Of a DNA stretch of 11,257 nt, positions 1-11,255 are shown piece by piece. The notes beneath the pieces were generated by a model. It was given only the letters and a program-made list of their open reading frames with translations, ran no database searches and was not told where the DNA came from. Numbering within the stretch: the stretch's first letter is position 1; every line of letters begins with the position of its first letter. Position numbers and translations under genes: made by a program. Source of the stretch: Promethearchaeota archaeon (GTDB taxonomy: Archaea; Asgardarchaeota; Lokiarchaeia; Sigyniarchaeales; SOKP01); assembly GCA_019057865.1 (NCBI GenBank), contig JAHLWP010000070.1, forward strand, positions 1 through 11,257, given 5' to 3'.

Positions 1-305
1 TGCTGGTGTTCAACGCCGAAGCGCCGTTAGCGATTCCAAAAAGAAAAGTCGGTGTTCCAATGATGCTCCGCTCCAACCGAAATTGCAGCATCGACGCTCC
101 CGACTACACTCTGTATTCAGTTCAAAACCGCAACAACAAGCTGCAGTAAAACTCCACGGGGTCTTCTCGTCCCACTGGGCTTCTCCGGACCGTTCGCCGG
201 AGTGTAATTTCAATCGTCAGAAGGCTGGGACAATGGGGAGAACGTTGGACCATTCATGCACGTCTGAACTTACCAGACAAGGCATTTGGCTACCTTAAGA
301 GAGTT

Positions 306-335
306 TAAACCTCGCACGGCTATTAGACATGCGAC
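306..335 (-). other. 30-nt archaeal-type (bulge-helix-bulge) intron in the 23S rRNA helix 69 loop, after U1917 (E. coli numbering)
   Basis: Sense sequence: GGGAGU-AACU-AU^G-UCGCAUG-UCUAAUAGC-CGUGCGA-GGUU-UA^A-ACUCUC. The outer helix is GGGAGU/ACUCUC, the central 4-bp helix is AACU/GGUU, the two 3-nt bulges are AUG and UAA, and the intron stem is UCGCAUG/CGUGCGA. Cutting after the second nucleotide of each bulge restores the consensus GUAACUAUAAC. Confidence 0.92.
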
Positions 336-1640
336 ATAGTTACTCCCGGCGTTTAGCAGGACTTACTCTGGTTGTAACCAGGATTTATCAAACTGCCACT
401 GGCCAGGTATCAGCCTCTGTGCAAAAGTTTTCACTCTAGCAGAGACCTATGTTTTTATTAAACAGTCGTCCCCCCCTAGTTATTGCAACTTGTGAGCCCC
501 CACACACTGCCGAAGCTGCGTGCAGAAATTCACAAGCAAGCCTTCTCCCAAAGTTACGGCTCCAATTTGTCGATTTCCCTAGCCTCCTTTACACGAATAC
601 GCCTTAGGCTACTCACCTAGGGGCACCTGTGTCGGTTCTGGGTACGATCACGGCATTTCTTGCTCATGCCTTTTTAATAGGTCCTGGGCTCGGCGGAACC
701 TTCCACAATTGGATGGCTATTCATGTTTTAAGCTGAGTCTAAGATTTACTCTATTCATCAGCCTTATACATTTAAATAGGGAGATATTCGACAACCCTAT
801 TCCACCTACCCGGAACCGTCAGCATGGAGCCATGCGTTACCGCTAGTGTAGTGCCGTGGTACAGGAATATAAACCTGTTTCCCTTTCGCGCATGCCAGTT
901 AAGGGTGCACTTAGGATCGACTAACTCTTCGCTGACGACGCATTGCAAAGAAACCCTTGCCCTTTCGGCGGATGGGATTCTAACCCATCTATGCTTTTAC
1001 TATTACCAGGATCTGCACTCCAAGTCGGTCCACAGGAACTCACGCACCTGCTTCTGCCCAACCTGGACGCTCCCCTACCAGATCACGGGGTTCTTCCGCC
1101 CGTGCTCTTGGGTCTCGGTGGCAGATTTAAGCCCCGTCCATTTTCGGGGCTATATTTCTCGGCAAATGAGTTGTTACACACTCGTTAGGGAATGGTTACT
1201 TCTATACCTATCCTTTTGCTGTCTTAGAAATATAACGCCCTTTAGTTTAACACTTAACCTGCACTTTGGGACCTTAACCCAAGTCTAGGTTGTTCCCTTC
1301 TCGGCGATGGACTTTACGCCCACCAACCCGTTTCCCAGAGTCTACAGCGCCAGCAGTTTTGGAGTTTAAGAGTGGGGCGAGAGATTTCTCCCCCATACCA
1401 CACAATTAGTGCTCTACACCACTGGCTACCTCGTCTAAGACTTGGCTGATACCAACTTCGGGGAGAACCAGCTATCACCGATCTAGATTAGCCTTTTGCT
1501 CCTATTCCCAGTTCATCCAAGCGAATTGCACATCAGCACTGGTGCAGACTTCCATCACCCTTTCGAGCGACTTCATCTTGACCAGGAATAGATCGACCGG
1601 CTTCGGGTATTATGACAGAGACTTTAGGCCCTTTAAGACC

Positions 1641-1747
1641 ATTCTTCTGGCCTAATCCCTTAGAAGGAATAGCTAAACGTTTTCCAGATGGCAAAACCAT
1701 CCTTCAACGAGTAGTTTTCCCTAATGTGATGATTAGGTTGCAAGAAT
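1641..1747 (-). other. Enlarged expansion segment ES9 (H31 region) of the LSU rRNA, ~107 nt long hairpin
   Basis: Extra sequence lies between the conserved flanks (plus strand) ttaagacc and tggtttccct, which are almost adjacent in E. coli. Nested complementarity: attctt/aagaat, cctaatc/gattagg, ttag/ctaa, aacg/cgtt-type pairs and the terminal hairpin gatgg-caaaa-ccatc. Confidence 0.8.
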
Positions 1748-2470
1748 ATTGGTTTCCCTACGCCTACATGGGTGATCCACTTAAGCTTGCCTCTACCATA
1801 AACTCCCTGGCCAATGATTCCAGACTGATGATGCAACCCTAGTCCTCTGCACTCTGATGTTCCGTCACCAGAACTCATTCGCACAGAATCTGTCCTTTCA
1901 GGCTGCATCCTTACTAAACTATTTGGTTTCAAGCACTTTTCACTGCCCTTCCGGGTTACTTTTCATCTTTCGCTCACGCTACTATTTCTCTATCGGTCTT
2001 GGGACATATTTAGATTTACCAGCGTGTATCTGGCACATTCGTACGAGAAAACCATCCCGCACTAATCGGGGACTCTCGCAGCAACCATCTAGATTATGAT
2101 TACGCGGCTATCACGCTCTATAGCTCAGCATTCCAGAAGTATTCATCTTCTCTAGGGAGGTCGTACAAGGCCCACACACCACATCTCCCATAGGTTTCCC
2201 TAGGGATTCGGTTTGATCTGTTCCGCTTTCGCTCGCCGTTACTCACGGAATCACTATTGTTTTCTTTTCCTCCTGGTACTAAAATGTTTTACTTCCCAGG
2301 GTTCCCCTTCCCTTCCGGGAATCTTGTGGATTATTAGGCCACAAGTGGATGTCCTATTCGAGAATCTCGGGGTCAACGTCTACTTGCGACTAACCCGAGC
2401 TTATCGCAGCTTGTCACGCTCTTCATCGGTGCCCAAGCCAAGATATCCACCAAATAGTGGAGGCGTATTG

Positions 2471-2827
2471 GCGTCTAATTGAGGAAAGATTCAGATTGCT
2501 TGCATAAAGGATTGCATACTAGGATAATAAGTTAATTGGAACGATTCTTTGGAAATTATTACTCAATGGGGAGTATGTTCCTATGAGCACGATTTTTCAT
2601 GCTTGGCTTGGTTTACTCACTTCCCGTATCACCTTAATCATTAAGTACTCCATGCGCCGGAATAAAGAATTCTTTATTTTTTGTACGATTCAAGTTCTCG
2701 CATGTTTCACTTTTTAAGATGTACTTCCGCGAGGCCAATACCAATTAAAGGTGTATATCATCCAAAATAGATGACATATTTTCCCACCAATAATTTTAAT
2801 AATTTTAATGGCAAATATACCATCGGC
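2471..2827 (-). other. Structured 5' external transcribed spacer (pre-23S leader)
   Basis: Non-coding, slightly higher GC than the adjacent intergenic DNA, and contains several inverted repeats. Examples: AGCAUGA-aaaa-UCGUGCU (pairs fully, via G-U, only on the minus strand, ~2587-2604), ggagta/tactcc (2570-2575/2646-2651), aataaag/ctttatt (2661-2678), ctcgc/gcgag (2697-2733) and tcatc/gatga (2758-2774). Confidence 0.6.
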
Positions 2828-3068: not shown

Positions 3069-3938
3069 ATGTGTTGTAAAGTTCTAATCGGTACTTCTGG
3101 CTGGGGTTATGATGAGTGGGTCGGGCCTTTTTATCCAAAAGGTCTAAAGAAAGAGGATTACCTTCTTTATTATTCAGAAATTTTTTATACGAATGAGATT
3201 AACACTACCTTTTATAACATCCCTTCAAAACGGATAGTAGAAAACTGGGTAAGTAAAACTCCAAAAAGTTTTTTATTTTCAGTAAAGATACCTCAAACTA
3301 TTACGCATGAGCATAAATTGGATATTAAATTCTGCTTAGATGATTTAGATTATTTTTTAAAAGTTATGAATCCCCTAATTGAATCTAAAAAATTAATATC
3401 ATTTTTAATTCAATTGCCTCCCTCTTTTAATAAGAAAGAGCATTTTGGCAATTTAAAGCAATTTATAGATAACTGGCCAAGAAATCGTGTAAATGATCAT
3501 TATTATATAGTAGTCGAGTTTAGACATAAATCTTGGATGGACCCCGAGACATTTAATTATTTAAAGGAAAATCTTTTAACTTATTGCGTTGTAATAGAGC
3601 CATTGTTACCGCCCCGCATGGATGTAACCAATCCAGAATTTGCTTACATTAGGTTTCATGGTTATGGAAAGAAAATCTGGTTTGATTATTTTTTTAAAGA
3701 AGAAGAAATAAAAAATTGGACACATTCAATAAAAACTATAATTCCAACAGTAAAAAAGATAGGTATCTATTTTAATAATCATTTCTCTGGCTATGCTGCA
3801 AAAAATTCTTTAATGTTAATGAAAGAATTAGAACTTGAACCTAGACATTTCCCTAAAAACATAAACATTCTAGAAATTAAGAAAAAATCAGGGACATTTT
3901 CAAAAGGGCAAATAGGCTTGGATGAATTTATGAAATAA
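3069..3938 (+). CDS. DUF72 (YecE/YunF-like) TIM-barrel protein
   Basis: 289-aa ORF with family motifs IGTSGWGYxxWxGxFYP, EINTTFY, QLPPSF, VEFRHKSW, YIRFHG and YFNNH. Confidence 0.93.
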   Translation: MCCKVLIGTSGWGYDEWVGPFYPKGLKKEDYLLYYSEIFYTNEINTTFYNIPSKRIVENWVSKTPKSFLFSVKIPQTITHEHKLDIKFCLDDLDYFLKVMNPLIESKKLISFLIQLPPSFNKKEHFGNLKQFIDNWPRNRVNDHYYIVVEFRHKSWMDPETFNYLKENLLTYCVVIEPLLPPRMDVTNPEFAYIRFHGYGKKIWFDYFFKEEEIKNWTHSIKTIIPTVKKIGIYFNNHFSGYAAKNSLMLMKELELEPRHFPKNINILEIKKKSGTFSKGQIGLDEFMK

Positions 3939-3970
3939 GTAGAAAGTATCATAACACAGAATTTCGAAGT

Positions 3971-3978
3971 TTTATAAA
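3971..3978 (+). promoter_or_regulatory. Putative TATA box for panE
   Basis: TTTATAAA preceded by a purine-rich CGAAG, 24-31 nt upstream of the TTG start at 4002. This fits a leaderless or short-leader archaeal transcript. Confidence 0.4.
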
Positions 3979-4001
3979 TTTATAACGGAGTCAAGAAAAG
4001 A

Positions 4002-5009
4002 TTGGATAAAATAAAATTAAAGATTGGTGTTATTGGAGCCGGTTCTATAGGGAGTTTGTTTGGCGGATATATTGCAAATTTTAAGTTTAAAACACATTTC
4101 CCTGAAGTAATATTTTTTTGTAGAAAAGATCATGCTGAAGCTATTAATAAAAATGAGTTAAAAATTATTAGGAATCAATCTACTTATGATATAAAAGGTA
4201 TTAAAGCATATGAAAATGAAAAAAAAATTGAAGATAAGATATCTAAGAATTTATCTTTTAGTTTTGATTTTATTTTTCTTACTACTAAGGCATACGATAT
4301 TGAAACTGCTATTTTTCAATATAAGAAAATAATTGATGCAAGTAAATATTTAATTATTTTGCAGAATGGAATTGGGAATGAAGAGATCGCAAGTAAATTT
4401 TGCCCAAAAAAAAAAATTATTAGGATAGTAACTACAAATGGAGCACTATTAGCTGAACCGGGGAAAGTAATCCATACTGGCTTAGGTATAACAAAAATTG
4501 GATTTCCATATCTTATTAGATTGGATCTTAAACCTAAAGATTTTGAACAACGCCAATCAGATATAAATTTATTGAAAAATATTTTAAATTTCGCAGGTTT
4601 AAAAACAATAATCGTTGATGATATTATTAGTGAATCTTGGGAGAAAGTATTCATAAATGTTGGAATTAATCCCATTGGAGCTTTAACTCAATTAAGAAAT
4701 GGTGAATTATTGGAAATCAAGGGGTTAAAACATTACATGGGTGAAGCAGTTAAAGAAGCAATTAATGTTGCTAGAATGAAAAAGATTAACCTTTCTGAAA
4801 AAGATTATATTGCTTTAACTTATGAAGTAGCGAAAAAAACTTCAAAGAATAAAAATTCTATGCTACAGGATATTTTAAATGGGAAAACAACAGAAATTGA
4901 TTTTTTAAATGGAAGAATAGTGAAATACGCCAATAAACTAGGAATTGAAGTGCCTATTAATAAAGTTTTAACATCTTTAATCAAGGGATTAGAATATTCA
5001 TTAACTTAA
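4002..5009 (+). CDS. panE: 2-dehydropantoate (ketopantoate) 2-reductase
   Basis: Rossmann motif IGAGSIGSLFGG, TTKAYD, LQNGIGNEE, WEKVFINVGINP (catalytic Lys), SMLQD and TEIDFLNG. TTG start. Confidence 0.93.
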   Translation: MDKIKLKIGVIGAGSIGSLFGGYIANFKFKTHFPEVIFFCRKDHAEAINKNELKIIRNQSTYDIKGIKAYENEKKIEDKISKNLSFSFDFIFLTTKAYDIETAIFQYKKIIDASKYLIILQNGIGNEEIASKFCPKKKIIRIVTTNGALLAEPGKVIHTGLGITKIGFPYLIRLDLKPKDFEQRQSDINLLKNILNFAGLKTIIVDDIISESWEKVFINVGINPIGALTQLRNGELLEIKGLKHYMGEAVKEAINVARMKKINLSEKDYIALTYEVAKKTSKNKNSMLQDILNGKTTEIDFLNGRIVKYANKLGIEVPINKVLTSLIKGLEYSLT

Positions 5010-5539
5010 TTAGTATCAGCATTTCGAACCATGTAGTACGCGTTTTCTCCATCTCGGTAATAATTCTTTTTGACACTATTCATTTTTAAGTTAAATTTTT
5101 CATATAATTTTATAGCGATATAATTTGATACCCTTACTTCTAAGACTAATTCTGTGATCTTATGTTTTTTTACAGCCGATATACTATTAGATAACAATGT
5201 TGTTCCAATTCCTCTTCTTCTATATTCTTCAGAAACTGCAATAGATACCAAGTGTCCTTTATTTACATATTTTAAACTATCCATAGAAGGAATTTGCTCA
5301 ACTCTCCACATCACATAACCCATAACTTTATTATCTTTATCGGTTGCTACCAAAAACGCTTCTGGAAAATTATCAAGAATGCTTTTATAGAAAAAGTAGG
5401 GATAATCTTCTGGTAATTCTCGTTCATTTACCTCGATTACGCCCTCCAAGTCATTTAATTTGCATCTCCTTATTAAAATCTGAGATTCAATTTTAATACT
5501 ATTCATAATGTTTATCTTAGTTTCTTTATCAGTACCCAT
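5006..5539 (-). CDS. GNAT N-alpha-acetyltransferase, archaeal Ard1/RimI (Naa10-like) family
   Basis: LPEDYP motif, GHLVSIAV, acetyl-CoA motif YRRRGIG, LEVRVSN and YYRDGENAY. The true start may be the second Met. Confidence 0.9.
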   Translation of the reverse strand: MGTDKETKINIMNSIKIESQILIRRCKLNDLEGVIEVNERELPEDYPYFFYKSILDNFPEAFLVATDKDNKVMGYVMWRVEQIPSMDSLKYVNKGHLVSIAVSEEYRRRGIGTTLLSNSISAVKKHKITELVLEVRVSNYIAIKLYEKFNLKMNSVKKNYYRDGENAYYMVRNADTN

Positions 5540-5644
5540 TGTTATCCTTGATTAATGATAGTTTTTAAAAGATAGATTGTTAATATATAGGATAATAATA
5601 ATAGAAACATTTAAGCTTTTATGAATTAGGTTATAATAGCTATT

Positions 5645-6448
5645 TCACGTTCCTAAAATTTCAAAAGCATCTTCTTTTTGTTTTTCTATATAATTTATTA
5701 TAAGATCTAAAGTATTTTGTATATTCTTTTTATTATCAAAGTTTTCAATAATTTTCTTTAATTCATTTTCACTAAATTTTTTTAGTTCTCCTACGATTTT
5801 AATCATTTCAGGTAAAGTTCTGACGATATTATCTACAATGGTTATATCTGCGCATAATGACGTTCTACTTAAAGGATTTAAATCGACAGCAATAACCTGT
5901 TTATTTAATTTTTTCAGTGCTTCGCTACGATCTCCGTCTTCAAGGGGAACTAATACTACATCTGCCAAATAAATACCATTTGGGTCAACTATTCTCCTAT
6001 TACTTGAAAGGTCTTTGATTTCAACCATTTTTTCTTCATCTATACCTAAAAGATTAGATGCACCAGCATTTTCCAATACTTTTTTAATTATCCCAATTCT
6101 ACCTTCTTTTCTATAAAATAAATTTATTTCAAGAGGGGCATTAACAGCATTAGATAATTCTATAAGGTATTTGGGGCATAAAGCAGCAGTATTACCATTA
6201 ACAGATATTACTGGTTTTTTAGCTAGTAATAAAAGGGCAACTGCCGCTTTAATAGCCTTCTTGGCTATACTATTTGTTTTCTCACCTAGTATATAATCAA
6301 AACATTCTCCCCTACCATGTGCTATTAAACCAGCTTCAGCAGTAATTAAATTTCTCATTCCTTCAATAATTTTACGTCTATAATTCAAACTCTGATAACG
6401 TGGATGATCCTTTGGAACCTTATGATCTTGGTTCTCATTAGAATTCAT
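5645..6448 (-). CDS. Phosphopantothenate synthetase (4-phosphopantoate--beta-alanine ligase, archaeal CoA pathway, DUF137 family)
   Basis: Family motifs HPRYQSL, GLIAHGRGECFDYILGE, PVISVNGN, VLVPLEDGDR and DLNPLSRT. Confidence 0.93.
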   Translation of the reverse strand: MNSNENQDHKVPKDHPRYQSLNYRRKIIEGMRNLITAEAGLIAHGRGECFDYILGEKTNSIAKKAIKAAVALLLLAKKPVISVNGNTAALCPKYLIELSNAVNAPLEINLFYRKEGRIGIIKKVLENAGASNLLGIDEEKMVEIKDLSSNRRIVDPNGIYLADVVLVPLEDGDRSEALKKLNKQVIAVDLNPLSRTSLCADITIVDNIVRTLPEMIKIVGELKKFSENELKKIIENFDNKKNIQNTLDLIINYIEKQKEDAFEILGT

Positions 6449-6470
6449 GATTCATAGATAAGTATAGGTC

Positions 6471-6478
6471 TTTATATA
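6471..6478 (-). promoter_or_regulatory. Putative TATA box for the phosphopantothenate synthetase gene, in a divergent promoter region shared with aRF1
   Basis: Minus-strand TATATAAA lies 23-30 nt upstream of the ATG at 6448. Confidence 0.35.
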
Positions 6479-6530
6479 GTTTAAAATAAAGGAAAAATAT
6501 TAATCTTTTGTATCTTTTATAATTTTGTTG

Positions 6531-7811
6531 ATGATTATGAGCTCTATGGTAGAAAAGAAAAGCAACGATTTGCAAATTTATCACACGAAAAAAGTTTTAG
6601 ATAACCTTAAAGGTAAAAAGGGATTCCACACAGAATTAATTTCATTGTACATTCCGCATGATCGTAAGGTTTCTGATGTAACAAATTATCTTAAGAATGA
6701 AATCAGTGAAAGCCAAAATATTAAATCAAAGTTAACTAGAAAAAATGTATTAGATAGTATAAATAGTCTTTTAGGTAAACTGAAAAATATAAGAGCTATT
6801 CCAGAAAATGGGCTAATTATGTTTTCAGGAGCAATTCCGCAAAATGATACACCTGGGACTGAAAAAAATGAATTAACAATTATCGACCCTCCGGAAAAAG
6901 TTACAACATTCAGATACCATTGTGCGAATGAATTTTTGTTATGGCCACTAGAAGAAGTACTTAAACCAAAAGAATCATATGGTTTAATTGTTATTGGAAG
7001 ATCTAAATCTGCCGTAGGCTATATTAGGGGTGAACACGTAGAGGTTGTGAGAGAATTCACTTCAGGAATTCATGGTAAACATCGAGCTGGGGGGCAATCA
7101 CAGAGGAGATTTGAAAGAGATATTGAGGAACAAGAAAAACAGTTCTATCGTAGAATCTCAAAGGAAATTAGTGATTTATTTTTATCTATGGAAGATTTGC
7201 AGGGCATCTTTATTGGAGGACCTGGTCTATCTAAAGAAAAATTTGTTAAGGATGAGAGCTTGGATTATAGACTGCGTGAAAAAATAATGGATATAGTTGA
7301 TCTTGGATATGGAGGTGCTGAAGGTATTCGAGCATTAATTGAAAAGATAAAGGATAAAATTGAAAACGTAAAATATATCCGAGAAAAACAAATTATGCAG
7401 CAATTTTTAAAAGAAATTTCAATCGATTCTGGACTAGCTGCATATGGTCTTGAAGAAGTCCAAAAAGCATTAAATATTGGTGCTATTAAAACATTAATTT
7501 TTTCTGAAAAATTGGATGTGTATAAATTAAATTTAGAATGTTCTAATTGTGGATATAAAGAATCGAGAACTGCTAGAGAACAAGAATTAATAATGATTGA
7601 ATCATCAATTCAAGATGAAAACTGTCCAGAATGCAGTTCGAACACATTTAATATTTCAGAAAAAACTACATTAATTGAAGACCTTGGAGCTATCGCAGAG
7701 ACTATGGGGACTGAAGTAATAATAATTTCCTCTGAAACGGAAGAAGGAGAAATGCTATATAGTACATTTGGAGGGATAGTTGCAATCCTCCGATTTAAAC
7801 TTACATATTAG
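6531..7811 (+). CDS. prf1: Peptide chain release factor aRF1 (eRF1 family)
   Basis: NIKS motif, YxCxxxF (YHCANEF), catalytic GGQ (KHRAGGQSQRRFER), C-terminal CxxC...CxxC zinc-ribbon insert and FGGIVAILRF end. The start is uncertain (TTG 6525, ATG 6531, 6537 or 6546). Confidence 0.96.
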   Translation: MIMSSMVEKKSNDLQIYHTKKVLDNLKGKKGFHTELISLYIPHDRKVSDVTNYLKNEISESQNIKSKLTRKNVLDSINSLLGKLKNIRAIPENGLIMFSGAIPQNDTPGTEKNELTIIDPPEKVTTFRYHCANEFLLWPLEEVLKPKESYGLIVIGRSKSAVGYIRGEHVEVVREFTSGIHGKHRAGGQSQRRFERDIEEQEKQFYRRISKEISDLFLSMEDLQGIFIGGPGLSKEKFVKDESLDYRLREKIMDIVDLGYGGAEGIRALIEKIKDKIENVKYIREKQIMQQFLKEISIDSGLAAYGLEEVQKALNIGAIKTLIFSEKLDVYKLNLECSNCGYKESRTAREQELIMIESSIQDENCPECSSNTFNISEKTTLIEDLGAIAETMGTEVIIISSETEEGEMLYSTFGGIVAILRFKLTY

Positions 7812-7893
7812 CCAAATATTAGTTTTTATCTTAAAATTAACTGACTCTATTAGAATGGTTATTAAAAATTTATGGTAAAATGGAGTATAATTT

Positions 7894-8886
7894 ATGGATT
7901 TAAAAGAAATTTTATTGAATTTAAATATGGTAATGTTTGGAGGCAAAGGTGGTGTTGGAAAAACAACATGTGCTTCAAGTTCAGCAATTTGGGCTGCTGA
8001 ACATGGTCGGAATACTTTAATTATTAGTATAGATCCAGCTCATTCATTGGGTGATAGCTTAGGAGTAGATTTACCTCCAGGTGAACCAAAACAAATACCC
8101 AGTATTGATAATTTAACGGCATTAGAAATTAATCCTAAAGCTAATATTTCAGAATTTCGTGGATTAACAAATATAAATCCAATAGAAGAAATGGGCATGC
8201 CTGATATTATGAGAGGAATGCCATTAATGGAAGATTTGCAAGAATTAACTTCAATGAATCCTCCTGGTATAGATGAGGCTTTAGCTTTATTAAAAATGTT
8301 AGAATTCGTAGAAACGGAACATAATTATGATTTAATAATTTTTGATACTGCCCCAACAGGTCATACACTTAGATTTTTAAGTCTTCCAGAAACTTTATCG
8401 GGATGGATAGGAAAACTTATTAACATGAGAATTAAATTTGGAAATATGTTTGGCGCAATAAAAAGAATTTTTACTCGAGAGGAAAAAAAAGAAGATAATT
8501 CTTTAAAGATTTTAGAAAGATTGAATAATTCCATCCTTAATGCAAGAGATGATCTCACTAATCCTTTGAAAAATTCATTTGTAATTGTTATGATCCCTGA
8601 AGAGATGGCAATAACAGAGACAGGTAGATTATTAAATGAACTTATTAAAAATAATATCCCCGTTTCAAATATAGTCGTAAATCAATTATATCAAGATCCA
8701 TCTGATTTATGTAATTTTTGTAGAGCCCGACGAGAGATGCAACAAAGAAACCTAATTAAAATAAGAGAAATTTTTAATGAAAAATTAGGTAAAAACTTGA
8801 TTGAAATACCTCTTTTTAAAGAAGAAATAAGAAAATACTCAAAATTGAAAGAATTAGGAAAATATTTAATTAATAATATGCGTTAA
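7894..8886 (+). CDS. ArsA/Get3(TRC40)-family ATPase, single domain
   Basis: Deviant Walker A GGKGGVGKTT, DPAHSL, PGIDE, switch II DTAPTGHTLRFL, a Met-rich helical segment and a dimer Zn motif CNFC. Confidence 0.93.
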   Translation: MDLKEILLNLNMVMFGGKGGVGKTTCASSSAIWAAEHGRNTLIISIDPAHSLGDSLGVDLPPGEPKQIPSIDNLTALEINPKANISEFRGLTNINPIEEMGMPDIMRGMPLMEDLQELTSMNPPGIDEALALLKMLEFVETEHNYDLIIFDTAPTGHTLRFLSLPETLSGWIGKLINMRIKFGNMFGAIKRIFTREEKKEDNSLKILERLNNSILNARDDLTNPLKNSFVIVMIPEEMAITETGRLLNELIKNNIPVSNIVVNQLYQDPSDLCNFCRARREMQQRNLIKIREIFNEKLGKNLIEIPLFKEEIRKYSKLKELGKYLINNMR

Positions 8887-9863
8887 GTAAAATCTTTTAA
8901 ATAATTACAATATGTGCAAATTTTAGTATTTCCACATGGATATCCACATAATTGACAAGAATTATAATTTATTTTCTCATTCTGATAATATAATGATTTT
9001 GATAGTTCTAAAAATCCATTGAATAGATTGAATTCTATCTCTGGACTATATTGTTTACATTTCTGAATAAATTCTAATACCCTCTTTCTTATTATAGGAT
9101 CTTTTTCTCTATACGGGCAGTGTGATGGATAATAATCGAATTTTTTTATGTTTGCATATAAAAAGATCTCATCCTCTGGAATTCTCATCAAGGGTGTTAT
9201 CTTCGTTATAAAATAATTTTCAATTCTACTATTCTGTTCTTTAAAGAGATACTGATTTGCTATTATATGAAAGCGTTTATATAAAATATTCATTAAAAAT
9301 GTTTCTGCTACATCAGTAAGATTATGACCTAATGCTAAAACAGTACCCCCTAAATCTTTTGCACTATCATTTAACAATCTTCTTCTAAACGTTGCACAAT
9401 AATTACATGCATATCTATAATCAATAGATTTCTTCTTGATACTTATGATCTCATCTAATTTATATCCTATTTTTTCCTTAAATGATATAATTTTATGTTC
9501 TATATCATATATCTTACAAAAATCCTTAGCTTTTTCAATGCTATTTTTTCTATAACCTTTTATTCCTTCATCAATCATTAATGCTATAATTGGTTCAGAG
9601 TTATATGTTCTTTCCTGAATTTTTATTAAATTATAGAGGAGGGAAATTGAATCTTTCCCACCAGACAATGCAACAATAATTTTATCATGAGGATGTAGCA
9701 TTTTATATTTGGAAATAGTTTTGTAAATATTTTTTTCAATATTCTTTTCAAAACATTCAGTACAGAGGATTTCTCCAGAATACCTTCGCTTAATGACAAC
9801 TGCATTTTTACAATGAGAACATTTTCCCTTTTCTAAGAATATTTTATAATTCATTAAAACCAA
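8883..9863 (-). CDS. tRNA 2-thiolation protein, Ncs6/CTU1/TtuA family (TIGR00269-like PP-loop ATPase)
   Basis: N-terminal CxxC...CxxC, PP-loop SGGKDS, central CNYC, GHNLTDVAET, CPY and C-terminal CxxC...CxxC. The start may be ATG 9854. Confidence 0.9.
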   Translation of the reverse strand: MVLMNYKIFLEKGKCSHCKNAVVIKRRYSGEILCTECFEKNIEKNIYKTISKYKMLHPHDKIIVALSGGKDSISLLYNLIKIQERTYNSEPIIALMIDEGIKGYRKNSIEKAKDFCKIYDIEHKIISFKEKIGYKLDEIISIKKKSIDYRYACNYCATFRRRLLNDSAKDLGGTVLALGHNLTDVAETFLMNILYKRFHIIANQYLFKEQNSRIENYFITKITPLMRIPEDEIFLYANIKKFDYYPSHCPYREKDPIIRKRVLEFIQKCKQYSPEIEFNLFNGFLELSKSLYYQNEKINYNSCQLCGYPCGNTKICTYCNYLKDFT

Positions 9864-9899
9864 GTAAAGTTCAATTTTTTAAGTGATAACAAATGATAA

Positions 9900-11255
9900 C
9901 TAAATCCAAAAAGTTAGTGATCCAAATTTCACAATTGATAAGATTAAGTTCCCAGCCACTATAATTAATGTAAATAATCTTAGAGTATTAATAATAGCTC
10001 TTTTTAATGGTCTTTTTCTGTCGTACCAATATTCATAAGAGATTTCAACAATTGAATTTTTATCTAATTTACTTTGTTCAGGTAAATCCAAAATCAATGT
10101 TTCTTTAAAACCGTCTCCAAATTTATCTATTAGATTATAATTATCTTCTGATAATAGAATTTCACTAGACTCTTTTATTTTTGAAGGATCTTGAATTGAA
10201 ATTTTTACAGAATTTACATTTTCTACACGATATTCTGATAAATCATATTCATATGCATCCGGTGTAAACTGATATTTCTCTTTCTTTTTTTTTATTATCT
10301 TATAATCTTCTCCAATCCCCCAATTGAGTAATTCTTTTACCATTCTATCTCCATCAAATATAGGTAAAGGTAAATTATTAAAGAGGGTTATACTGAATGC
10401 TATTATAAAAAGCCAAGCTATTTCTCTTAATAAAAATTCTGGAAAGAAGCTCGTGAAAAATTTGGCTATATCATTTTTATGCATAAAATATGAATTAGTA
10501 AATATTCCTATAACCACACCAACTACGTCCACATCTAAAGTCCATGTTTGTGTGTCTGATGAAAAATTTATAGTCTTTAAATTAAAAGAAGTTAAACTAT
10601 ACTCTAGGGTATCTCCATTTGAAACATTTATAGGCATTCCATCAATTTTATTTATGATTACTCCTTTTGTTATATTTCCATAATTATTACCCCCTTCAAC
10701 ATCTGTATAAACTTTGGTTATTTTCAATTCACTATTAGAAATATATTGATATGTTATTCCTAAATTATATCGGGGGCCTAGTGTAACATTTTTTACGAAA
10801 TATTTATCATTAGAAGGTTGATATATTCTCAATGATAAATTATCACCAACGGAACATAATAAACTTGTCTTATTATTCAAGATATTGCTAAGAGTTTTTT
10901 TATTATAATTATCAATATTTACATACTCTGTATCAGGTGTATCTTTCTTTTTAATTGCTAATATGACATCCCCTTTAGTGACATTTCCATAATTAAAACC
11001 TCCTTCTTCTTTTTTTAAAACTGAATTTATTTGTGTGACATTACGATAATAAGGAGATATCATTAAGGGAAAACTTAATAATAATATGAAAGCGATCCCT
11101 GCAGTAATACTATTTATATATGTACCTGCTGCTGCTATTCTTAACCGTGTATTTCTATGGAATTTAATAGAATTTAATTCCCTTTCATCAACTTCTACAA
11201 ACGCTCCAAATCCAATTATAAAAAAAAATCCTGCTCCCAGAACTCCTGTAGATTT
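9900..11255 (-). CDS. Site-2 protease family (peptidase M50) membrane metalloprotease with PDZ-like region; N-terminus outside the window
   Basis: The frame stays open upstream of the listed ATG (11063) to the window edge, reading KSTGVLGAGFFFIIGFGAFVEVDE...RLRIAAAGTYIN, which is typical of S2P. The NxxPxxxxDG motif is NNLPLPIFDG. The HExxH motif would lie beyond base 11257 and is not visible. Confidence 0.85.
   Translation of the reverse strand, partial: KSTGVLGAGFFFIIGFGAFVEVDERELNSIKFHRNTRLRIAAAGTYINSITAGIAFILLLSFPLMISPYYRNVTQINSVLKKEEGGFNYGNVTKGDVILAIKKKDTPDTEYVNIDNYNKKTLSNILNNKTSLLCSVGDNLSLRIYQPSNDKYFVKNVTLGPRYNLGITYQYISNSELKITKVYTDVEGGNNYGNITKGVIINKIDGMPINVSNGDTLEYSLTSFNLKTINFSSDTQTWTLDVDVVGVVIGIFTNSYFMHKNDIAKFFTSFFPEFLLREIAWLFIIAFSITLFNNLPLPIFDGDRMVKELLNWGIGEDYKIIKKKKEKYQFTPDAYEYDLSEYRVENVNSVKISIQDPSKIKESSEILLSEDNYNLIDKFGDGFKETLILDLPEQSKLDKNSIVEISYEYWYDRKRPLKRAIINTLRLFTLIIVAGNLILSIVKFGSLTFWI

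What the first reader, a model, noticed from the sequence alone, without database searches (positions are those of the whole stretch)
299..347. Minimal bulge-helix-bulge intron interrupting the H69 loop (L1917) of a probable Asgard 23S rRNA
Seen: the normally invariant GUAACUAU-AAC loop of helix 69 is split by 30 extra nucleotides. These fold with the exons into a textbook hBHBh': 6-bp exon stem (347-342/304-299), 4-bp central helix AACU/GGUU (341-338/311-308), 3-nt bulges AUG (337-335) and UAA (307-305), and a 7-bp intron stem. The G-U pairs work only on the rRNA strand. Known: BHB motifs are cut by the tRNA splicing endonuclease EndA after the second bulge nucleotide and ligated by RtcB, and H69 forms intersubunit bridge B2a, so it is very unlikely to tolerate an unspliced insert. 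Classical archaeal rRNA introns are described mainly from hyperthermophilic Thermoproteota. Inference: this is a protein-spliced, ORF-less rRNA mini-intron (306-335) in a low-GC Lokiarchaeia-like organism, releasing a 30-nt, probably circular, RNA. I am not aware of this being described for this lineage and site, but cannot verify novelty.
Basis: partly seen in the sequence, partly recalled or inferred. Interest (0 to 1): 0.92.

Follow-up and report, generated by a model that had tools for sequence, protein, structure and literature searches.

The report
Mini-intron in Asgard 23S helix 69
The only large-subunit ribosomal RNA gene found in this Loki-type Asgard archaeon carries a real 30-base, protein-free insert in the tip of helix 69, shaped and placed like an intron cut out by the archaeal tRNA-splicing enzyme; the kind is known, the site and host group were not in the papers I could search, and removal from the RNA is not yet shown.

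Summary
Observation confirmed base for base. A 30-nt insert (335-306, minus strand) follows U1917 in the H69 loop of the only 23S gene found in a Promethearchaeota (Lokiarchaeia-type) genome. It forms a perfect 6-3-4-3-7 bulge-helix-bulge (BHB). Cutting after the second base of each bulge restores the exact loop of intron-less relatives. Five other assembly records carry the same insert (two with one loop change), so it is not an artefact. It is patchy: 2 of 29 readable family genomes. Eleven distinct same-site inserts of 29-57 nt, one in Hadarchaeota, keep the BHB register with compensatory changes. The host encodes two EndA subunits and RtcB. The RNA data could not separate splicing from intron-less relatives, so splicing and circularisation remain inferred. 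It is a new member of the known class of short hairpin BHB rRNA introns (Thermoproteales). L1917 is a known bacterial group I site; I found no paper on BHB introns there or in Asgard rRNA. This scan already reported a 57-nt intron at the same site in another Asgard genome. A second BHB mini-intron sits in H91 of the same gene (contig C46).

The parts
306..335 (-). 30-nt ORF-less BHB mini-intron inserted after U1917 (E. coli numbering); first base G335, last base A306
   Evidence: Exact indel against intron-less genus mates; boundaries equal predicted EndA cuts; same insert in other assemblies
336..347 (-). 5' exon part of H69: stem strand 347-342, central-helix strand 341-338, first two bulge bases 337-336 (U336 = U1917)
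   Evidence: numbering checked against the 1915-1938 target sequence in PMC2602781
299..305 (-). 3' exon part of H69: A305 (= 1918, third base of the 3' bulge) and stem strand 304-299
308..311 (-). Intron-encoded partner strand of the 4-bp central BHB helix
   Evidence: 40 of 44 pairs kept across 11 same-site inserts; slid controls 5-24 of 44
312..334 (-). Intron hairpin h': 7 bp (334-328 with 312-318) and 9-nt loop
   Evidence: 52 of 55 pairs at positions 1-5 across 11 inserts, four pair types at position 1; slid controls 18-25 of 55
1..2474 (-). Host 23S rRNA gene, 5' 2.47 kb; continues on contig C46 through a 55-nt identical overlap; only copy found; unlinked from 16S (C77)
2488..2506 (-). 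Leader half of the pre-23S processing-stem BHB (central strand 2501-2498, bulge 2497-2495); the partner half lies in the trailer on C46
   Evidence: (leader and trailer sequences, pairing read by eye)
290..298 (-). Empty L1927-type intron site, occupied by mini or endonuclease-bearing introns in relatives

Best explanation
A small protein-spliced archaeal rRNA intron. In the pre-23S transcript the insert pairs with the four loop bases 1912-1915 of H69, turning the helix into a canonical hBHBh' (anatomy shown). The host's two-subunit tRNA splicing endonuclease EndA cuts after the second base of each bulge, at U336|G335 and A306|A305 (inferred from established BHB chemistry). RtcB joins the exons and regenerates the normal H69 loop (the product sequence is shown to equal that of intron-less relatives; the ligation itself is inferred). 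The 30-nt hairpin is released, possibly circularised (inferred, untested). It is most likely a near-neutral passenger that persists because EndA must process this transcript's BHB processing stem anyway. It has no means of spreading alone. Gain and loss are recurrent, by decay of an endonuclease-bearing ancestor, co-conversion with homing at the neighbouring L1927 site, or RNA-level insertion (speculative, not resolved).
For: Perfect motif with boundaries at the predicted cut sites. Same insert in an NCBI genome, two JGI and two ENA assembly records at 97-99.5% 23S identity, the only change being in the loop. Present in 2 of 29 family genomes where the site is readable; absent from G220, whose 16S is 99% identical. 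Eleven distinct same-site inserts (about nine types, 29-57 nt) keep exon junctions, central helix and stem with compensatory changes. Carriers are not one clade on a 23S exon tree (p-AU 0.0002). EndA catalytic-type subunit (best solved match 3p1z, E 3e-35), a second EndA subunit and RtcB are present. Only 23S copy found in a 99.7% complete assembly. H69 deletion is dominant lethal (PMC2602781).
Against: No direct RNA proof. The four RNA runs hold relatives with fixed differences from this strain, and a spliced junction is identical to the intron-less allele. The minimum-energy fold forms only 2 of 4 central pairs without protein. Four of the 11 same-site inserts have a mismatch in the central helix. 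No L1917 intron with an endonuclease gene was found to explain its origin. The assembly has 87 contigs and could hide a second, intron-less 23S copy.
Confidence: 0.9

Rival explanations
1. The insert is an expansion kept in the mature 23S, giving an elongated H69.
For: This lineage has real rRNA expansions, for example about 75-82 extra nt near window 1655-1736 relative to other families. The insert is a stable hairpin.
Against: Patchy, sequence-unrelated inserts at one phosphodiester bond, all keeping a 4-bp partner for the loop and 3-nt bulges. It would sequester 1912-1915 and lengthen the helix that forms bridge B2a (established knowledge; PMC2602781).
Confidence: 0.03
2. The insert is cut out by EndA but the exons are not ligated, leaving 23S nicked in the H69 loop like a bacterial intervening sequence.
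For: Ligation was not observed here.
Against: RtcB is present. BHB rRNA introns are ligated in known cases (PMC4496867). A break in the H69 loop should be harmful (inference).
Confidence: 0.04
3. Assembly artefact or dead rRNA copy.
For: The window is a metagenome-derived contig that ends inside the gene; the genome is 5% contaminated.
Against: Same insert in five other assembly records from three sources. Not a duplication of flanking sequence. No other 23S in the assembly. The gene scores 1899 + 610 bits and keeps a processing-stem BHB.
Confidence: 0.02
4. A self-splicing group I intron or its catalytic remnant at the bacterial L1917 site.
For: L1917 hosts 743-774-nt group I introns with LAGLIDADG genes in Synechococcus and Thermotoga (PMC1995217). 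A group I origin of BHB introns has been proposed (PMC6125680).
Against: 30 nt cannot hold a group I core; no Rfam intron match. Distant ancestry cannot be tested at this length.
Confidence: 0.01

Closest known systems
Short (<50 nt) hairpin-forming BHB introns of Thermoproteales/Desulfurococcales 16S rRNA genes, e.g. loci 901, 978, 1205 (Jay & Inskeep 2015, PMC4496867)
   Same: ORF-less, under 50 nt, single hairpin, BHB at the exon junctions, inserted in a highly conserved rRNA loop, patchy among relatives
   Different: 23S H69 loop (L1917) instead of 16S; Promethearchaeota host (29% GC) instead of hyperthermophilic Crenarchaeota; no partner endonuclease intron in the same gene
Archaeal 23S introns at L1927, e.g. 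Vdi141.L1927 with I-Vdi141I (PMC2602781)
   Same: Same H69-H70 region; the I-Vdi141I target (1915-1938) overlaps the L1917 insertion point; relatives of the host carry L1927-type introns, one with a Pfam LAGLIDADG_1 gene
   Different: Ten bases upstream, no ORF; never seen together with an L1927 intron in the genomes read (small numbers)
Bacterial group I introns at L1917 (Synechococcus sp. C9, Thermotoga subterranea; PMC1995217)
   Same: Identical insertion position
   Different: Those are 743-774-nt ribozymes with endonuclease genes; this is 30 nt and needs a protein endonuclease
Archaeal tRNA introns cut by (alpha-beta)2 EndA in Asgard/TACK (PMC5829648)
   Same: Same motif and presumably the same enzyme; the genome has many intron-bearing tRNA genes
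   Different: Host RNA is 23S rRNA

Membership tests
Archaeal BHB rRNA introns | Interrupts an rRNA gene; removal restores the conserved sequence exactly | tested here: met
Archaeal BHB rRNA introns | Two 3-nt bulges on opposite strands separated by a 4-bp helix, flanked by helices | tested here: met
   6/6, 4/4, 7/7
Archaeal BHB rRNA introns | Intron ends fall after the second base of each bulge | tested here: met
   Indel 335-306 equals the predicted cuts; same register in 11 inserts
Archaeal BHB rRNA introns | Host encodes EndA and RtcB | tested here: met
Archaeal BHB rRNA introns | Intron absent from mature rRNA, exons ligated | tested here: inconclusive
   runs hold relatives, contigs only; spliced form equals the intron-less allele
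Archaeal BHB rRNA introns | Cleaved by EndA in vitro; excised intron circularises | not testable with these tools
   Needs bench assay or raw small-RNA reads
Short hairpin (HP) subclass of Jay & Inskeep | Under 50 nt, no ORF, hairpin | tested here: met
   30 nt, 7-bp hairpin; definition
Mobile endonuclease-encoding BHB introns | Intron-encoded LAGLIDADG ORF | tested here: not met
   30 nt; no long L1917 intron with an intact downstream flank found in 400 phylum genomes
Group I introns (L1917) | P3-P9 ribozyme core | tested here: not met
   Too short; no Rfam match
rRNA expansion segments | Clade-wide, inherited insertion at a variable surface site | tested here: not met
   2 of 29 family genomes, non-monophyletic, unrelated sequences at an invariant loop

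The most novel reading that the evidence does not exclude
Lokiarchaeia-type archaea run a pool of ORF-less mini-introns that turn over quickly and may move between sites of the 23S gene (L1917, L1927, H91). The L1917 intron is kept or spread because it breaks the 1915-1938 target of L1927 homing endonucleases, acting as an endonuclease-resistant allele. Ribosome assembly at H69 would then depend on EndA splicing in the closest prokaryotic relatives of eukaryotes. Hints: no genome read has both L1917 and L1927 introns; strains with 99% identical 23S genes have different H91 introns; the L1917 and H91 introns of this genome share 7 bases in register. None of this is tested.
Probability: 0.15. 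Interest if true: 0.7.

Novelty: new member of a known kind. Interest (0 to 1): 0.4.

Why it matters
It extends BHB rRNA introns from hot-spring Crenarchaeota to Asgard archaea (and Hadarchaeota) and to the tip of H69, a core functional element of the ribosome. It is a minimal natural EndA substrate for testing the Asgard enzyme, the closest prokaryotic relative of the eukaryotic tRNA splicing endonuclease. Such inserts also break 23S annotation, primers and probes. It does not imply a new mechanism.

Tried and rejected
RNA runs X1-X4 laid on window 1-1300: contigs only, with fixed differences from this strain (563 C>T, 909 A>G). Two joints in X3 rejoin at 336 in nearly spliced form, but intron-less relatives give the same sequence, so this is not used as evidence. 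A loose BHB scan of 23S and 16S gave no more hits than shuffles. The 16S gene shows no intron (full-length 97-99% matches to relatives). The search for any L1917 3' junction in 400 phylum genomes found only G000 and G233; it needs an intact downstream flank and rRNA is often unassembled. The search for L1917 plus L1927 together in 135 family genomes found none (low power). Pattern hits rejected as introns: L027 (not rRNA), L041-L043 and L045 (tandem copies of the H69 site), L049 (local duplication with an N), L034 (eukaryote-type flanks, no BHB). G270 was dropped from the final tree because its row misaligned. The 370-aa ORF in the G270 L1927 intron has LAGLIDADG-like motifs by eye but no Pfam, PHROG or PDB match. 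The H91 table was off by one base and was redone. The sigma-70 promoter scan is uninformative for an archaeon. Literature searches for Asgard or Promethearchaeota rRNA BHB introns and for L1917 found no report. Tocchini-Valentini 2011 was not held and most subscription papers are missing, so novelty of the site is not proven.

Full report
Observation. The window's first 2474 bases are the 5' part of an archaeal 23S rRNA gene on the minus strand. The gene continues on contig C46 through a 55-nt identical overlap and is the only 23S in the 4.26-Mb, 29% GC assembly, which is 99.7% complete by marker genes. In the H69 loop there are 30 extra bases, 335-306. Matching the flanks to the sequence numbered 1915-1938 in PMC2602781 places the insertion after U1917.

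More than chance. Shuffled inserts reproduce the 4/4 helix and 7-bp stem in this register at 2e-5. The strict motif occurs once in the gene, at this spot, against 0.02 per shuffle. The rRNA strand folds at z -3.4 and the other strand at z 0.0. A loose BHB pattern is common by chance, so the argument rests on the strict motif plus the next point: the indel against intron-less genus mates is exactly 335-306, which is what EndA cuts after the second base of each bulge would remove.

Not an artefact. Contigs carrying the neighbouring genes were fetched. GCA_019056735.1, two JGI metagenomes and two ENA assemblies have the insert at 97-99.5% 23S identity to the window; three are identical and two differ by one base in the hairpin loop.

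Host. Two neighbouring proteins fall in 90% clusters whose named members are 'Promethearchaeota archaeon' (one is labelled Hodarchaeota), which fits a Lokiarchaeia-type Asgard archaeon. The genome encodes two EndA subunits and RtcB. The C71 subunit best matches solved splicing endonucleases (3p1z, E 3e-35) and keeps the Tyr, His and Lys motif positions in that alignment; the C69 subunit lacks the His by eye, consistent with the (alpha-beta)2 type reported for Asgard. The leader (2506-2488) and trailer of the 23S form a BHB processing stem, so the transcript is an EndA substrate in any case.

Distribution. Among family genomes where the site can be read, 2 of 29 have an L1917 insert (G000; G233 with 57 nt). 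G220, with a 99% identical 16S, lacks it. Collection scans for inserts of 10-70 nt found further cases in GTDB genomes (including a Hadarchaeota MAG) and JGI metagenomes. Across 11 distinct inserts the central helix keeps 40 of 44 pairs and the first five stem pairs 52 of 55, with up to four pair types per position; slid registers give at most 24 of 44 and 25 of 55. Some of the 11 are near-copies, so these are about nine types, not 11 independent events. All start with a purine. The closest other type is 20/30 identical. On a tree of 1.3 kb of upstream exon sequence, carriers within the family need at least two changes and are rejected as one clade (p-AU 0.0002; G270 left out). This is the pattern of an intron that is gained and lost, not of an expansion segment.

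RNA. Fourteen RNA runs hold related 23S sequence. The four laid were contig sets from relatives with fixed differences, and a spliced junction cannot be told from an intron-less allele. Splicing is therefore inferred, not shown.

Mechanism. Shown: anatomy, boundaries, restored product sequence, enzymes present, only copy found. Inferred from established BHB biology (PMC4496867): EndA cleavage, RtcB ligation, release of a 30-nt hairpin that may circularise. Because loss of H69 is dominant lethal and the insert would tie up loop bases 1912-1915, retention is unlikely. Origin is open. Eight relatives carry introns about ten bases downstream at the L1927-type site, both mini forms and long ones, one with a LAGLIDADG_1 gene (E 1.5e-15). 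The known L1927 enzyme I-Vdi141I recognises 1915-1938, overlapping L1917, and co-conversion of a hairpin intron by a neighbour's endonuclease is documented for Pog.S1205/S1213. No genome read carried both introns, which fits resistance better than co-conversion, but numbers are small. No long L1917 intron was found.

Comparison with what is known. It works like, and meets every sequence-testable criterion of, the short hairpin BHB rRNA introns of Thermoproteales. It is not a group I intron, although bacteria have group I introns at L1917; archaeal group I sites listed by Nawrocki 2018 are 1923, 1931, 2500 and 2593. I found no paper describing BHB rRNA introns in Asgard archaea or at L1917, within a library that lacks most subscription papers. 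Earlier notes of this scan report a 57-nt intron at the same site in another Asgard genome and similar mini-introns in H89 and 5S; I recovered the 57-nt case independently and do not count the notes as support.

Verdict. Real, well-formed, very probably spliced; a new member of a known kind at an apparently unreported site and host group. Interest 0.4.

Noticed in passing
G000 contig C46:7488-7523, minus strand (L025; continuation of this 23S gene, outside the window): Second BHB mini-intron, 36 nt, in the H91 loop (about E. coli 2533). 22 distinct 28-43-nt inserts versus 6 intron-less forms among the family loci read; central helix 76/88 and stem 100/110 pairs kept. Much more common than L1917.
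   Followed up: partly
L096, L097, L125 versus L025: Strains with 97.6-99.5% identical 23S genes and the identical L1917 intron carry two different H91 intron types, suggesting rapid replacement at that site.
   Followed up: partly
window 311-317 and C46 H91 intron: The two introns of this gene share seven bases in the same BHB register (3' strand of the stem plus the first central-helix base) and similar 5' strands. Possible common origin or exchange between sites; may be chance.
   Followed up: no
L053, L069, L074, L076, L083, L015, L081, L082: Relatives carry introns at the L1927-type site: 29-47-nt mini forms, a ~260-nt form, a ~590-nt form with a 169-aa LAGLIDADG_1 ORF (G068) and a ~1.24-kb form with an unclassified 370-aa ORF (G270).
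   Followed up: partly
window 2488-2800 and C46 trailer: Stand-alone 23S gene with no 16S or tRNA beside it in the window and a long processing stem with a BHB; 16S lies on C77 beside an intron-bearing tRNA-Ala.
   Followed up: partly
window about 1655-1736: About 75-82 extra nt relative to 23S of other families, shared with genus mate G031; likely an expansion segment rather than an intron.
   Followed up: no
L133:646-2412 (G000 C37): Free-standing 588-aa ORF with a weak LAGLIDADG_1 match (E 5e-4) and two motif-like stretches; target unknown.
   Followed up: no
L034:4668-4760: Eukaryote-type LSU flanks with a 65-nt GT...AG insert one base downstream of 1917, resembling a spliceosomal rDNA intron in the same loop.
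   Followed up: no
L041, L042, L043, L045: Tandem 50-nt repeats of the eukaryote-type H69 target sequence in non-rRNA context.
   Followed up: no
window 3069-11255: Ordinary neighbours: DUF72, ketopantoate reductase, GNAT acetyltransferase, phosphopantothenate synthetase, aRF1, ArsA/Get3 ATPase, TtuA-like protein, and a 3' part of a protein annotated as M50 peptidase in relatives. No link to the intron.
   Followed up: yes
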